This document shows, in pieces, positions 2,685 through 10,361 of a DNA stretch of 12,737 nt; within the stretch, counting starts at the first letter, position 1; the number at the start of each line of letters is the position of its first letter. The stretch lies in the IMG/VR virus record IMGVR_UViG_2526164663_000020, one strand, 5' to 3'. Source of the DNA: a virus (taxonomy: Duplodnaviria; Heunggongvirae; Uroviricota; Caudoviricetes). The notes under the pieces are model-generated. The model saw only the letters and a program-made list of their open reading frames with translations. It was not told where the DNA came from and made no database searches. Position numbers and translations under genes: made by a program.

Positions 2685-3143
2685 TCATCCTTTGATGTCT
2701 GTATTTACAGCCTGGCAAGCCTCTTCGAGCACCCAGTCAACAGCGTCTTTCCACGCACCAGTCCCAACTGGCGGATTCTCATTTTTTACCTGCTCATAAA
2801 AACGCACCGCTTTAACCAGTCCTTCAGGCACTACCGGCGCTGGTAAGGCAGCGTGACAGTAGAGTGGCATAGTTTTGTACAGTGGTTCGCCAGGACTTCC
2901 GTCAACCTGATTCCATTCTTCAACCCAGGCATCAACAACCGCTTTGCTGGTTGATACATGTTCTTCTGAATCTACATTTTGTCCTGATATACAGAACATA
3001 ACTGGCTCTGCTGCCAGTGATGCCAGCGCAATCCGTGCCAGCTCTTCCGCTTCTTCTGCTGGAAGCACAACGTTGCTACCCGGTCCGTATGTTTCGCGCC
3101 AATGCTGGATTGTCAGCAGTCGATCTTTGGTAAAAGTGGTCAT
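2685..3143 (-). CDS. Hypothetical ea-region protein (152 aa); intact paralog of the IS-disrupted gene
   Basis: ORF MTTFTKDRLLTIQHWRETYGPGSNVVLPAEEAEELARIALASLAAEP…; its first ~47 codons are near-identical to 1893..1968 plus 564..629, after which the two diverge. Confidence 0.7.
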   Translation of the reverse strand: MTTFTKDRLLTIQHWRETYGPGSNVVLPAEEAEELARIALASLAAEPVMFCISGQNVDSEEHVSTSKAVVDAWVEEWNQVDGSPGEPLYKTMPLYCHAALPAPVVPEGLVKAVRFYEQVKNENPPVGTGAWKDAVDWVLEEACQAVNTDIKG

Positions 3144-3145
3144 AG

Positions 3146-3337
3146 CTATTTCACCTTAATCTCAACATTTCGCAGCTTTAGCTCTACTGGCAGGTCTGAC
3201 TTTCCTGTTAATGCTAATGCGAGATTTTCTGGAGTAGTGAGAACAGTTATTGTTTTCCCCCTCGCCAGACGAATAATCATGTGTATCTCGCTATCGTCAC
3301 ATGCTCCTGGTCGAACAATTGAGATTTGTCCGTTCAT
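3146..3337 (-). CDS. Small hypothetical phage protein (63 aa)
   Basis: Internal ATG at 3335..3337 (MNGQISIVRPG…) lies 1 nt after the upstream gene's stop at 3339; its own stop is 2 nt before the next gene. The ORF track's 77-aa form would overlap the upstream gene. Confidence 0.5.
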   Translation of the reverse strand: MNGQISIVRPGACDDSEIHMIIRLARGKTITVLTTPENLALALTGKSDLPVELKLRNVEIKVK

Positions 3338-3338
3338 C

Positions 3339-3539
3339 TCACTCTCCTTTGATGCGAATGCCAGTAGCGCGGATTGCATCGATGACTTCAGAAACTTTGT
3401 ATGCCATTACCGTTTGGTAATCATCGTGAAAATCTGTTCGATGAAGCATGCTGCTACGTTCCGGGAGCAGTATTTCCCGCGCTTCCAGTTCTGCAATGCG
3501 CTTTTTTGCTGCTTCCAGTTCATCCAGTAATTCCAGCAC
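3339..3539 (-). CDS. Small hypothetical protein (66 aa), coiled-coil-like
   Basis: GTG start at 3537..3539; sequence LELLDELEAAKKRIAELEAREILL… The overlapping alternative-frame ORF 3407..3622 is Arg/Trp/Cys-rich and judged spurious. Confidence 0.5.
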   Translation of the reverse strand: MLELLDELEAAKKRIAELEAREILLPERSSMLHRTDFHDDYQTVMAYKVSEVIDAIRATGIRIKGE

Positions 3540-3667
3540 GGTAGCCGGATTAGCCTTGGCAACAAAATCCCGGACTGGCTTACAATCAATCTCCGCAATG
3601 GGTTGATACGATGTGTAGCCATGCTGTCTTGTATAACTACCGTGACGAATAACGAAAAATCACCATT

Positions 3668-6433: not shown

Positions 6434-6566
6434 TTTTGGGAACTCCTGGCTGATTAAGTACGTCGATGAGTCGCTTCCATCCGTCACGTAATTTACGGGT
6501 GATTCGTTCAAGTAAAGATTCGGAAGGGCAGCCAGCAACAGGCCACCCTGCAATGGCATATTGCAT
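6426..6566 (-). CDS. cIII: CIII (FtsH/HflB inhibitor that stabilises CII)
   Basis: MQYAIAGWPVAGCPSESLLERITRKLRDGWKRLIDVLNQPGVPKNG is near-identical to the lambda CIII N-terminal 46 residues. AGGAG lies 7 nt upstream of the ATG at 6564..6566. It is 46 aa here against 54 aa in lambda as I recall it. Confidence 0.9.
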   Translation of the reverse strand: MQYAIAGWPVAGCPSESLLERITRKLRDGWKRLIDVLNQPGVPKNG

Positions 6567-6586
6567 GGTGTGCTCCTTATTTATAC

Positions 6587-8140: not shown

Positions 8141-8171
8141 AGGCAAAGAAAACCCGGCGCTGAGGCCGGGT
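8141..8171 (-). terminator. Intrinsic terminator on the minus strand (tImm-like) ending the cI/TAC transcript before PL
   Basis: Minus-strand RNA: ACCCGGC-cucagc-GCCGGGU followed by UUUCUUUG (stem 8152..8158 with 8165..8171), 8 nt after the stop at 8180. Confidence 0.7.
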
Positions 8172-8179
8172 GGGGAATT

Positions 8180-8584
8180 TCACTTATTACTGTTCGTTTC
8201 CATGGGATTGGCCAAGAAATCAAAATAAGGCAGAGTGAACCTACCAAGGTTTGACATGAGGATAATTTGCTCGGCATATGTTTTTATATAGGGATATGCC
8301 ATATTGGGAGCAATGGACCTTACCTCATATGATTTTGCCATTTCATGAGAAAAATCATCTTCTGACCGGAAGTCAAAGTCGTATGTGATGTCCATCTCAA
8401 GCCTGCCTTCAATAGTTACGGAGGCAAAATATCTCACTCTAAATAGCTTTGAATCCTTCACATTAGTGTAAAGTTCATTATTTAGATTAACGGTTGTTTT
8501 TATGGCTTTTTTTGCTGTTGAATCGCCTTCTAGCCGTGTCATAACCAAGCGTTCAACTTTTTTGCTAATGAGTTCAATTTTCAT
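8180..8584 (-). CDS. SecB-like chaperone, putative third component of a toxin-antitoxin-chaperone module
   Basis: 134 aa. The segments FRVRYFASV and APNMAYPYIKTYAEQIILMSNLGRFTLPYFDF parallel E. coli SecB LRVTVTAS and [33 protein letters not shown] as I recall them. Weak RBS. Lies 82 nt downstream of the antitoxin gene on the same strand. Confidence 0.6.
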   Translation of the reverse strand: MKIELISKKVERLVMTRLEGDSTAKKAIKTTVNLNNELYTNVKDSKLFRVRYFASVTIEGRLEMDITYDFDFRSEDDFSHEMAKSYEVRSIAPNMAYPYIKTYAEQIILMSNLGRFTLPYFDFLANPMETNSNK

Positions 8585-8666
8585 GGTAATAATAAGTAAT
8601 TTCCGTCAGAAGTCATTTCGTCATTCAGGTTGCTAGCCGCTGTGAAACTTGATGACAAGTTACTTA

Positions 8667-9236
8667 TCAAAGAAAAACATTCCGTTTTTCTTTGCATTTG
8701 CCATTACCCCTTACTGCGCTGAACAACATTTTTGAAAAGTAAGATTCTGTAGCCTTTTCAGCGAAATAAGCAGAAGGTGATGTGACGGCTGACTCACACC
8801 GAGCAATGACGCTAGTCATGGCTGTTTCTTCTTCCTCTGCGTCAACTAGGCTCCATTCAATTGCGCTCATATCTTGAATTAAGATATCTGCAGGAATTCC
8901 AAGTCCGTCATGTAGTCTACGGATCATTGAAAGACTTAATGGACGCTTACGATTTAAGACCTCAGATACTTTAGATGCTGAGCCAATGTATTGTTTCATA
9001 TCGGCATAAGAGAGGCCTTGTTGATCCATACGGAACTTGATTGCTTCTATGGGATCTGGCTTGTCCATAGGGAACTCGCGTGACTCATAGTGCTCGATAA
9101 GCAAGCCTAGTAGTTCAAACTCATCAAAATCTTCAGTTCCAGGTTGTAAATCACTAGACGCAAGTTCAATGAGCCTTTCCATAGCTGCAGCATGCTCTTC
9201 ACTATTTTTAATGATGCGCCAGCTAGTTCGATTCAT
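8667..9236 (-). CDS. HigA-like HTH antitoxin with a C-terminal extension of about 70 aa
   Basis: 189 aa. The start overlaps the toxin stop by 4 bp (ATGA). The central segment …MKQYIGSASKVSEVLNRKRPLSLSMIRRLHDGLGIPADILIQ resembles the HTH region of E. coli HigA as I recall it. The tail (…SPSAYFAEKATESYFSKMLFSAVRGNGKCKEKRNVFL) is absent from canonical HigA. Confidence 0.65.
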   Translation of the reverse strand: MNRTSWRIIKNSEEHAAAMERLIELASSDLQPGTEDFDEFELLGLLIEHYESREFPMDKPDPIEAIKFRMDQQGLSYADMKQYIGSASKVSEVLNRKRPLSLSMIRRLHDGLGIPADILIQDMSAIEWSLVDAEEEETAMTSVIARCESAVTSPSAYFAEKATESYFSKMLFSAVRGNGKCKEKRNVFL

Positions 9237-9520
9237 TTAAGCCTCCACTTGTCGTACTCTGCATGAGTTCCAACTCTTTCAACTATGACCATTCCTGCCT
9301 GGTAAACAACTTGGACAACGAGCCGATAGTTATTGCCTTTTATATTAAAAATTACCCTGTTGTTAGGAAGGAAGTCGGCAGAATTAAATCTATTCCGTAT
9401 GTCTTGAGTCGTTTTCCAGTTTTCTCTTATCACTTCATCATACCAAGAGTCTAAAGCCCCCTTGGCCTGATTGTGCTTCCGGCTAAAACTGTGAAGCTTC
9501 TCTACGTTTAAGACCTTCAT
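9233..9520 (-). CDS. HigB-like (YgjN-type) RelE-fold mRNA interferase toxin
   Basis: 95 aa. The C-terminal half …NNRVIFNIKGNNYRLVVQVVYQAGMVIVERVGTHAEYDKW resembles E. coli HigB as I recall it. The toxin gene precedes the antitoxin, as in higBA operons. Confidence 0.7.
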   Translation of the reverse strand: MKVLNVEKLHSFSRKHNQAKGALDSWYDEVIRENWKTTQDIRNRFNSADFLPNNRVIFNIKGNNYRLVVQVVYQAGMVIVERVGTHAEYDKWRLK

Positions 9521-9532
9521 AATCCGATTTTG

Positions 9533-9574
9533 TTCCCTCTTTGGGAATTATAGATTCATTTCCCATAAAGGGAA
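9533..9574 (-). promoter_or_regulatory. Promoter of the TAC operon with two palindromic candidate operators
   Basis: Palindromes TTCCC-N5-GGGAA at 9533..9547 and 9560..9574 flank a perfect minus-strand -10 TATAAT (plus-strand attata at 9547..9552), about 27 nt upstream of the toxin ATG. The -35 element is weak or unclear. Confidence 0.6.
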
Positions 9575-9656
9575 TCTGTATTTTTATCCAGAAATGCTAT
9601 GTACATCACCCAAACGTCTCTTCAGGCCACTGGTTACCAGCTATGTGACGATGAAG

Positions 9657-10361
9657 TCACGAACTTTTCAGCCACTCCCTTGCCTCGATGTCATCCAGAT
9701 GGCGAGATTGCTTCAGAATACCAGCCACATACTCCACCTTTGCTACTTGATGATAAGGCAACGTTATTGGCCTGTGGTCCTGGTTGATGCTTGTAAATTG
9801 GTATTCTCCGTCTCTGTCATAGCCAAGAACTTTGATCATGTTGTGTCCTTCAACAGTTCTGACAAACACCTCATCACCCGGGAATACTTTGGTGTTAGGC
9901 TCAATGAGTACATATTCTCCTGATTTTATTCTGGGCCACATGCTGTCTCCTTTCACACGAAGACCAAAGGCATCTGGATCATCGCTATAAATTTTGAGCC
10001 ACCCATCGCGCTCTTCGGTCATCTCGATGGCACCATCAACACCAAGAATTGCCTCACCAACCACGCGCACTAACCCTTTTCTTACCTGACCGACAAAAGT
10101 TAAAGAATCTGAGCATGATGCAATTGGTGTTACATCATGTACCAAATCAAGCCACCCATTAGGTAACCCAAGCGCGGCTTCAAATTTTCTTGCTAGTTTA
10201 TCCCCTATGTTTCGAGTGCTTTTTTCACCGGAGACTTGCGTGAGTTGAGAAGGGCTAACCCCAAGCTTATCGGCAAAGCTTGCATTAGTGTTACCCGCGA
10301 TTTTTTTATGCTCATCTAGCAAAAACGCCAGATTCGATTTGCGAATATCTTTGTTTTCCAT
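9657..10361 (-). CDS. cI: cI-type prophage repressor (N-terminal HTH, C-terminal S24 LexA-like autopeptidase domain)
   Basis: 234 aa with an HTH region (…FADKLGVSPSQLTQV…) and a C-terminal GDSMWP motif typical of S24 self-cleaving repressors. Divergently arranged with cro. Confidence 0.85.
   Translation of the reverse strand: MENKDIRKSNLAFLLDEHKKIAGNTNASFADKLGVSPSQLTQVSGEKSTRNIGDKLARKFEAALGLPNGWLDLVHDVTPIASCSDSLTFVGQVRKGLVRVVGEAILGVDGAIEMTEERDGWLKIYSDDPDAFGLRVKGDSMWPRIKSGEYVLIEPNTKVFPGDEVFVRTVEGHNMIKVLGYDRDGEYQFTSINQDHRPITLPYHQVAKVEYVAGILKQSRHLDDIEAREWLKSS

What the first reader, a model, noticed from the sequence alone, without database searches (positions are those of the whole stretch)
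9533..9574. Twin palindromes around a perfect -10 upstream of the toxin gene
Two copies of TTCCC-N5-GGGAA (9533..9547 and 9560..9574) bracket a consensus minus-strand TATAAT. This is the classic layout of an autorepressed toxin-antitoxin promoter and shows the module is transcribed independently of PRM, like a self-contained moron.
Basis: seen in the sequence. Interest (0 to 1): 0.5.

Follow-up and report, generated by a model that had tools for sequence, protein, structure and literature searches.

The report
Self-repressed promoter of phage HigBAC defence cassette
The two small palindromes around a perfect -10 box are very probably the binding sites through which the HigA antitoxin shuts off the promoter of a known three-gene toxin-antitoxin-chaperone anti-phage system (HigBAC) carried next to the repressor gene of a Shiga-toxin phage; this is an expected, ordinary arrangement, now well supported by comparison with relatives.

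Summary
TTCCC-N5-GGGAA occurs exactly twice in the window, at 9533-9547 and 9560-9574 (expected 0.02). The two copies bracket a minus-strand TATAAT at 9552-9547.

The window is the immunity region of a BP-4795/ST2-8624/H-19B-type Stx phage. The genes downstream are a three-gene toxin-antitoxin-chaperone cassette, not a plain two-gene pair: higB (9233-9520), higA (8667-9236) and the SecB-like higC (8180-8584). This is the HigBAC anti-lambda defence system described from E. coli NT1F31, which sits in the slot where lambda carries rexAB.

Comparative evidence for operator function is strong:
- TCCC-N5-GGGA lies upstream of higB in 55 of 60 homologous loci across several phyla.
- 46 of the 49 exact occurrences in 327 kb of those loci fall in that 150-nt stretch.
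- The palindrome always abuts the host's core promoter element.
- The twin-site plus TATAAT geometry is invariant in Klebsiella, Salmonella and Serratia prophages and in 32 IMG/VR contigs.
- E. coli K-12 higBA, shown experimentally to be autorepressed, has the same layout with a half-site differing by one base.

The cassette (8172-9603) brings this promoter with it. However, no terminator separates it from cI, so independence from PRM is not shown.

Verdict: a new member of a known kind, of modest interest.

The parts
9560..9574 (-). Distal operator (minus strand TTCCCTTTATGGGAA). It spans about -34 to -20 of the predicted promoter and overlaps the weak -35.
   Evidence: conserved
9547..9552 (-). 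Consensus -10 hexamer TATAAT of the predicted higBAC promoter.
   Evidence: invariant in L087-L091, in 32 IMG/VR contigs and in 5 of the 7 twin-site loci, window included
9533..9547 (-). Proximal operator (minus strand TTCCCAAAGAGGGAA). It spans about -7 to +8, covers the predicted start site, and its centre is 20 nt from the higB ATG.
9569..9574 (-). Weak -35 candidate TTCCCT (16-nt spacer, 3 of 6 matches), formed by the operator half-site itself.
   Evidence: read; not called by the scanner
9578..9586 (-). A-tract TAAAAATAC at about -46 to -38, a possible proximal UP-element subsite. The A-run is kept in close relatives.
   Evidence: the UP-element assignment is inference from general knowledge
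9539..9541 (-). Predicted transcription start (A9540 is 7 nt after the -10). Not measured.
   Evidence: inference from the position of the -10
9233..9520 (-). higB, a RelE-like ribosome-dependent RNase toxin (95 aa).
   Evidence: Pfam PF09907 E 4.5e-30; PADLOC PD-Lambda-2_A 2.5e-42; PDB HigB 5ycl/5ifg
8667..9236 (-). higA, the HTH antitoxin/repressor with a C-terminal chaperone-addiction extension. It is 189 aa here because of a 1-nt deletion, and 218 aa in all reference phages.
8180..8584 (-). higC, the SecB-like chaperone of the TAC system (134 aa).
   Evidence: PADLOC PD-T4-9_C 3.2e-11; a UniRef name for this cluster is 'Preprotein translocase subunit SecB'; bioRxiv 10.1101/2024.02.24.581848
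8152..8171 (-). Intrinsic terminator (t_imm-like) ending the cI-higBAC transcription unit. It is backbone sequence shared with phages carrying other cargo and with lambda downstream of rexB.
8172..9603 (-). Exchangeable cargo cassette: promoter/operators plus higB, higA and higC.
   Evidence: homology breakpoints against L003/L004, which have the same cI and other cargo
9604..9656 (-). Backbone spacer 3' of the cI stop, with a conserved linker motif and small hairpins but no terminator.
9657..10361 (-). cI repressor (S24 peptidase type), transcribed from PRM towards the cassette.

Best explanation
The 42-bp element at 9533-9574 is the promoter-operator region of the higBAC toxin-antitoxin-chaperone operon. 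A sigma-70 promoter is built on a perfect -10 (9552-9547), a weak -35 and an upstream A-tract, and should start transcription near 9540, about 20 nt before the higB ATG. Two 15-bp palindromes carry the family consensus TTCCCA-N3-TGGGAA. They lie 27 bp apart centre to centre, at about -34..-20 and -7..+8. They are binding sites for dimers of the HigA antitoxin, whose HTH lies at residues ~67-118. HigA, alone or complexed with HigB or HigB/HigC, would occlude RNA polymerase and keep the operon at a low, self-limited level. Loss of HigA would derepress the promoter. The published model for this system has the phage major tail protein gpV diverting the HigC chaperone, which would cause such a loss. 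The promoter is part of a 1.43-kb cargo cassette inserted between cI and the immunity terminator, the slot that holds rexAB in lambda. Because no terminator precedes it, the cassette probably also receives read-through from PRM/PRE.

Shown here: the sequence features, their non-random occurrence, their conservation and co-occurrence with HigA, the cassette boundaries and the gene identities. Inferred: HigA binding, repression, the start site, promoter activity and read-through.
For: (1) The motif is not due to chance: 2 exact hits against 0.02 expected.

(2) Footprint across distant relatives. In 60 higB upstream regions (HigA 47-61% identical, spanning Gamma- and Betaproteobacteria, Bacteroidota, Anaerolineae, Verrucomicrobia and others), 45 carry an exact TCCC-N5-GGGA and 55 carry one with at most 1 mismatch. 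Of 49 exact occurrences in 327 kb of those loci, 46 lie within 150 nt upstream of higB.

(3) The palindrome is always placed on core promoter elements. In 19 of 25 single-site loci a TAnnnT hexamer starts 1 nt after GGGA, and about 17 of the 25 have a TTGnnn hexamer 17 nt further upstream. In Bacteroidota the site precedes TAnnTTTG-like elements. In 5 of the 7 twin-site loci (the window and 4 relatives) TATAAT abuts the proximal site exactly as here.

(4) In close HigBAC relatives downstream of four different repressor genes, the 47-nt core is 91.5-95.7% identical. By comparison higB is 84-88.5% identical, higC 68-81% and flanking non-coding DNA 60-72%. All 20 half-site bases and the TATAAT are invariant.

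(5) 32 IMG/VR contigs carry the exact architecture. In every one higB starts 55 nt after the pattern, and HigA homologues follow in all 32 and HigC homologues in 31.

(6) HigA and HigB are homologues of E. coli K-12 HigA/HigB. The K-12 promoter has TTGCCA-N3-TGGCAA and TTGCCA-N3-TGTCAA bracketing TGtTATCAT. It was mapped by primer extension and shown to be repressed by HigA (PMC2814082).

(7) The HTH recognition region is invariant across the family, which fits a conserved half-site.

(8) The cassette boundaries include the promoter.
Against: There is no direct evidence in this system: no transcription start, no binding data and no reporter data. The study that characterised HigBAC does not mention operators or autoregulation in its text and drove its constructs from vector promoters such as Ptet. 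The -35 is poor and the generic promoter scanner did not call the site. PRM read-through could supply much or most of the transcription in a lysogen. The palindromes also allow an RNA hairpin of -17.7 kcal/mol in read-through transcripts, so an additional RNA-level role cannot be excluded. Whether free HigA, HigBA or HigBAC is the repressing species is unknown.
Confidence: 0.8

Rival explanations
1. The palindromes are HigA binding sites, but the operon is expressed essentially by read-through from PRM. The sites would then act as a transcriptional roadblock or attenuator rather than as operators of an active internal promoter, and the TATAAT would be incidental.
For: No terminator lies between cI and higB. 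The -35 is weak. All enterobacterial HigBAC cassettes examined sit directly downstream of a co-oriented repressor gene.
Against: TATAAT is invariant at a fixed position in all twin-site relatives, including non-prophage chromosomal loci (L020, L010, L047, L006). In single-site relatives the palindrome sits in a recognisable -35/-10 spacer. The homologous K-12 operon has one mapped promoter of its own.
Confidence: 0.1
2. The twin palindromes work mainly at the RNA level. In cI read-through transcripts they pair with each other into a long hairpin that affects higB translation, processing or stability.
For: RNA 9580-9515 folds at -17.7 kcal/mol (z = -2.7) and buries the GAGGG, whereas RNA starting at 9540 is unstructured.
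Against: Each site is individually a palindrome, which dimer binding requires but a long hairpin does not. Most family members have only one site. The arms are invariant, so covariation cannot be assessed. GAGGG lies 14 nt from the ATG and is absent from distant twin-site relatives, which have separate Shine-Dalgarno sequences. There is no Rfam match.
Confidence: 0.05
3. The sites are extra operators for the phage's own cI or Cro, or a plus-strand intrinsic terminator, or a chance repeat.
For: The terminator scanner flags 9560-9574 on the plus strand with a T-rich tail. The element lies in the immunity region.
Against: The region annotated as oR1-oR3 in ST2-8624 (window sequence) contains no TTCCC-N5-GGGAA site. 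The motif travels with higBA into non-phage genomes and next to unrelated repressors. No plus-strand gene ends there. Chance is excluded.
Confidence: 0.02

Closest known systems
E. coli NT1F31 HigBAC toxin-antitoxin-chaperone defence system (bioRxiv 10.1101/2024.02.24.581848)
   Same: The gene order higB-higA-higC is the same, and both sit on a lambdoid prophage directly downstream of cI in the rexAB slot. In the reference form of this cassette HigA is 218 aa, with the chaperone-addiction region from residue 122, W128, F158, F188 and Y214, and a Leu-Pro C-terminus, exactly as published. The SecB-like third gene is also shared.
   Different: That study does not mention the native promoter, operators or autoregulation in its text; its immunity constructs kept 150 bp of upstream DNA but were driven by Ptet. 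The window's higA carries a 1-nt deletion that truncates the last 30 residues. Sequence identity to the NT1F31 accessions could not be checked directly.
E. coli K-12 higBA (ygjN-ygjM) promoter (Christensen-Dalsgaard et al. 2010, PMC2814082)
   Same: The toxin and antitoxin are homologous and the operon is toxin-first. Two 15-bp palindromes bracket the -10 and the proximal one lies just upstream of the start codon. A single mapped promoter is repressed by HigA and induced when the antitoxin is lost.
   Different: The half-site is TTGCCA instead of TTCCCA. Spacing is 29 bp instead of 27 bp. The -10 is TGtTATCAT, an extended -10, instead of TATAAT. There is no chaperone or ChAD, and the context is chromosomal rather than phage.
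Lambda rexA-rexB downstream of cI (PRM transcript plus internal promoter PLIT)
   Same: The genomic slot is the same and the downstream terminator is homologous (one search shows 93% identity to the DNA just past rexB). Both are accessory exclusion/defence cargo expressed in the lysogen. From general knowledge, both combine read-through from PRM with an internal promoter.
   Different: The proteins and mechanism are unrelated, and PLIT is not known to be autoregulated by its own products.
Rts1/Proteus vulgaris higBA Phig with operators O1 and O2 (recalled from memory, not checked here)
   Same: The logic is the same: two inverted repeats overlapping the -35 and -10 are bound by HigA dimers.
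   Different: The HigB and HigA subfamilies are different, and so is the operator sequence.
PD-Lambda-2 (Vassallo et al. 2022, PMC9519451)
   Same: HigB matches PD-Lambda-2_A over its full length (2.5e-42). The HigA N-terminal and HTH domain matches the first 125 positions of PD-Lambda-2_B (7e-50).
   Different: [quoted passage not shown] Here the extension is a ChAD and the third gene is SecB-like.

Membership tests
HigBA (YgjN/YgjM-type) autoregulated type II TA operon | Toxin-first operon encoding a PF09907 HigB toxin | tested here: met
   Pfam PF09907 E 4.5e-30; PDB HigB E 1e-4; higB precedes higA with a 4-nt overlap
HigBA (YgjN/YgjM-type) autoregulated type II TA operon | HTH (Xre-type) HigA antitoxin homologous to K-12 HigA | tested here: met
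   PDB 5ycl/5ifg HigA E 5e-5 over residues 53-119; HTH_3 is below the Pfam cutoff; sources name many homologues HigA
HigBA (YgjN/YgjM-type) autoregulated type II TA operon | Palindromic operator(s) overlapping the core promoter | tested here: met
   the K-12 layout is seen
HigBA (YgjN/YgjM-type) autoregulated type II TA operon | HigA binds the operators and represses transcription | not testable with these tools
   Only comparative support is available. Experimental precedent exists for K-12.
Toxin-antitoxin-chaperone (TAC) system, HigBAC type | Third gene encodes a SecB-like chaperone | tested here: met
   PADLOC PD-T4-9_C (CmdC) E 3.2e-11 over the full length; a UniRef name is SecB. There is no Pfam, NCBIfam or PDB sequence hit, and no fold was predicted.
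Toxin-antitoxin-chaperone (TAC) system, HigBAC type | Antitoxin carries a C-terminal chaperone-addiction extension with spaced aromatic residues | tested here: inconclusive
   The reference 218-aa form has W128, F158, F188 and Y214 and ends in LP, as published. The window's copy is truncated after F188 by a frameshift.
Toxin-antitoxin-chaperone (TAC) system, HigBAC type | Chaperone-dependent neutralisation and phage-triggered abortive defence | not testable with these tools
   Shown for the NT1F31 system in the preprint.
Phage moron (independent transcription unit inserted between backbone genes) | Present or absent between genes that are adjacent or conserved in related phages | tested here: met
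   L003 and L004 have the same cI and terminator but different cargo, with breakpoints at 9604 and 8171.
Phage moron (independent transcription unit inserted between backbone genes) | Own promoter | tested here: inconclusive
   A predicted promoter lies inside the cassette. Its activity has not been measured.
Phage moron (independent transcription unit inserted between backbone genes) | Own terminator and insulation from flanking transcription | tested here: not met
   The terminator at 8171-8152 is backbone sequence shared by other cargos. No terminator lies upstream between cI and higB.

The most novel reading that the evidence does not exclude
The twin operators would make the prophage's defence cassette infection-responsive at the level of transcription. 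When an incoming phage's tail protein diverts HigC and HigA is lost, the promoter at about 9540 would be derepressed inside an otherwise cI-silenced prophage, giving a feed-forward burst of higBAC mRNA. Steady-state supply would come from PRM read-through transcripts, whose long leader folds the two palindromes into a hairpin. The two transcript classes would therefore be translated differently.
Probability: 0.2. Interest if true: 0.5.

Novelty: new member of a known kind. Interest (0 to 1): 0.3.

Why it matters
The result supplies the missing cis-regulatory description of a recently characterised phage-defence system (HigBAC) that is carried by Shiga-toxin phages, including the ST2-8624 prophage of strain 86-24. 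It defines a simple operator motif, TTCCCA-N3-TGGGAA, that appears to be shared by a large, cross-phylum HigA family. It also shows that the promoter travels with the cargo between prophages with different immunity. In practice, the motif can be used to annotate these operons and to design reporters for defence activation. It does not change current understanding of how toxin-antitoxin promoters work.

Tried and rejected
- The consensus promoter scan did not call the site because the -35 is below its 4-of-6 threshold. The promoter call was therefore judged by hand and by comparison with relatives.
- The same scan flags 9560-9574 as a plus-strand terminator. This was rejected as a by-product of the palindrome plus the AT-rich upstream tract.
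- Rfam gave no family at the locus; the only hit in the window is the cIII thermoregulator.
- NCBIfam gave no hit for any of the three proteins. Pfam and a PDB sequence search gave nothing significant for HigC, so its identity rests on the PADLOC model, a UniRef name and the preprint.
Close relatives were recovered through the look-up of encoding contigs and a viral contigs pattern scan.
- The Salmonella SehAB report of two palindromes on the -35 and -10 is retracted (PMC3868539) and was not used as evidence.
- The old H-19B record (AF034975.3) differs by many indels and GC/CG swaps, including inside the distal palindrome. These look like sequencing errors, so the record was not used for conservation.
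- cI/Cro operator identity was rejected, because the oR1-oR3 region (annotated, read) holds no match to the palindrome pattern.
- No structure prediction was run, because it would not bear on the promoter question.

Full report
**Observation.** The window reads TTCCC-TCTTT-GGGAA at 9533-9547 and TTCCC-ATAAA-GGGAA at 9560-9574. ATTATA at 9547-9552 is TATAAT on the minus strand. These are the only two matches to TTCCC-N5-GGGAA in the 12.7 kb, exact or with one mismatch. The exact pattern is expected 0.02 times, and no shuffle out of 200 reached two matches. TATAAT occurs only twice in the window. The two 15-mers are 13/15 inverted copies of each other, so the 42 bp has an overall dyad.

**Context.**
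- The window is 99.9% identical to the immunity regions of the Stx phages BP-4795 and ST2-8624 and of many Stx1a/Stx2a phages. It is 99.0% identical to the old H-19B record.
- Reading leftward on the minus strand, the genes are cI (9657-10361, S24 type), a 95-aa HigB toxin (9233-9520, PF09907 E 4.5e-30), an HTH protein (8667-9236) and a 134-aa ORF (8180-8584). A strong intrinsic terminator follows at 8171-8152, then N.
- The HTH protein and the toxin are distant homologues of the crystallised E. coli/Shigella HigA and HigB.
- PADLOC assigns HigB and the HigA DNA-binding half to PD-Lambda-2 A and B. It assigns the third ORF to PD-T4-9_C, the SecB-like chaperone CmdC.
[quoted passage not shown] Its HigA is 218 aa, has a chaperone-addiction region from residue 122 with W128, F158, F188 and Y214, and ends in Leu-Pro. 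The system senses the lambda tail protein gpV.
- The 218-aa HigA of BP-4795 has all of these features at those positions. The 'toxin-antitoxin module' is therefore a known tripartite anti-phage system.
- The preprint never mentions operators or autoregulation in its text, and its constructs were driven by vector promoters.

**Are the palindromes operators?** I collected 80 distant loci encoding HigA relatives (47-61% identity over the N-terminal and HTH domains).
- A HigB homologue lies immediately upstream in about 65 of them.
- Among the 60 upstream regions with a clear higB start, window included, 45 contain an exact TCCC-N5-GGGA and 55 contain one with at most one mismatch.
- Of the 49 exact occurrences in the 327 kb of those loci, 46 lie in the 150 nt upstream of higB.
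- The consensus is TTCCCA-WWW-TGGGAA.
- The HTH recognition segment (KVSEVL...LSLSMI) is invariant across the family, which fits a conserved half-site.

**Position of the palindrome.** The site tracks the local core promoter.
- In 19 of 25 single-site loci, mostly Betaproteobacteria, a TAnnnT hexamer starts one base after GGGA. A TTGnnn hexamer lies 17 nt upstream of it, which puts the site in the -35/-10 spacer.
- In Bacteroidota the site precedes TAnnTTTG-like elements.
- Seven loci have two sites 27-28 bp apart, centred 19-22 and 47-49 nt from the start codon. In five of these, including the window, TATAAT abuts the proximal site.

**Close relatives.** Klebsiella, Salmonella and Serratia prophages carry higBAC directly downstream of four different repressor genes.
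- Their 47-nt core is 91.5-95.7% identical to the window. By comparison higB is 84-88.5% identical, higC 68-81% and the flanking non-coding DNA 60-72%.
- Every half-site base and the TATAAT are invariant. Changes are confined to the N5 centres and the 7-nt stretch between the distal site and the -10.
- A pattern scan of IMG/VR found 32 contigs with the exact architecture in 9 sequence variants. In all of them higB starts 55 nt after the pattern; HigA homologues follow in all 32 and HigC homologues, down to 41% identity, in 31.

**Experimental precedent.** The K-12 higBA upstream region reads TTGCCA-ATC-TGGCAA, then cggaTGtTATCATa, then TTGCCA-ATT-TGTCAA. That is again two 15-bp palindromes bracketing the -10, with a half-site one base different from the one here. 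Christensen-Dalsgaard et al. mapped a single higBA promoter by primer extension. They showed that it is repressed by HigA and induced in a Lon-dependent way, and they drew inverted repeats in the promoter as putative binding sites (PMC2814082).

**Anatomy of the predicted promoter (inference).**
- With the -10 at 9552-9547, the start should be about A9540, leaving a 20-nt leader.
- The proximal site covers -7 to +8 and the distal site covers -34 to -20.
- The -35 is only TTCCCT (3 of 6 matches, 16-nt spacer) and is formed by the operator half-site itself, which is why the scanner missed it.
- An A-tract at about -46 to -38 is kept in close relatives and could act as a UP subsite.
- Two bound HigA dimers would exclude RNA polymerase.

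**Moron claim and independence from PRM.**
- Phages with the same cI but other cargo (L003, L004) are collinear with the window up to 9604, which is 53 nt past the cI stop. Collinearity resumes at the terminator stem at 8171.
- The cassette is therefore 8172-9603 and includes the promoter and operators. That supports a self-contained cargo unit.
- The terminator, however, belongs to the backbone and is homologous to the DNA just past lambda rexB.
- Neither the scanner nor RNA folding finds a terminator in the 136 nt between cI and higB.
- Read-through from PRM/PRE is therefore expected, as for rexAB. The sequence does not show independence from PRM.

**RNA alternative.** In read-through RNA the two palindromes pair with each other (-17.7 kcal/mol), while RNA starting at 9540 is unstructured. 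This is an unavoidable consequence of two inverted palindromes. Most relatives have one site, and the buried GAGGG is 14 nt from the ATG. I therefore treat an RNA role as a minor possibility.

**Verdict.** It is incomplete about the system, which is the HigBAC toxin-antitoxin-chaperone defence cassette, and it overstates independence from PRM. This is a new, not previously described member of a well-known kind of regulatory element. Interest is modest.

Noticed in passing
window 8667-8680 (T-run on the coding strand, around 8673): higA carries a 1-nt deletion (T5 instead of T6) relative to all 30 phage records and to H-19B. This gives a 189-aa protein instead of 218 aa, loses the last ChAD motif (Y214) and loses the ATGA overlap with higC. 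IMG/VR contig L117 shows the same arrangement, 1 nt shorter. It could be a real variant or a homopolymer sequencing error.
   Followed up: partly
window ~9604-9632; also L003, L004, L087-L091 just 3' of their repressor genes: A linker of about 30 nt, CCAGTGG(C/A)C(T/G)GA(A/T)GAGAC(G)TTTG, is shared downstream of the repressor stop codon by prophages with different cI alleles and different cargo. It is a candidate recombination joint for cassette exchange, or an unrecognised RNA element.
   Followed up: partly
L001 (KU238070.1 ST2-8624), locus 3139-3558: The GenBank record of phage ST2-8624 leaves higB unannotated, although the ORF is intact and identical to the one here.
   Followed up: no
L016, L017, L022, L024, L028, L039, L041, L044, L045, L050, L051, L054, L056, L061, L066, L075 (upstream of higB): In betaproteobacterial homologues the single operator fills the -35/-10 spacer and the -10 ends about 7 nt before the ATG. 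This suggests leaderless higB mRNAs.
   Followed up: partly
L052, L057, L064, L076, L078, L081: In Bacteroidota homologues the palindrome, sometimes as TTACC-N5-GGTAA, lies just upstream of TAnnTTTG-like promoter elements. The operator appears to have been re-fitted to a different promoter type.
   Followed up: no
L003 1593-2099 and L004 1580-2631: Other cargos occupy the same cI-to-terminator slot: two small hypothetical ORFs in L003, and a 144-aa plus 206-aa overlapping pair in L004. Their function is unknown and they are likely further defence or exclusion cassettes.
   Followed up: no
window 6521-6579 (-): Rfam Lambda_thermo (cIII thermoregulator) scores 88.5 bits. It is the only Rfam family found in the window.
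   Followed up: no
L093 (AF034975.3, H-19B): The 1990s H-19B record differs from all modern records by many single-base indels and GC/CG swaps across the cassette, including a missing G in the distal palindrome. These are probably sequencing errors.
   Followed up: partly
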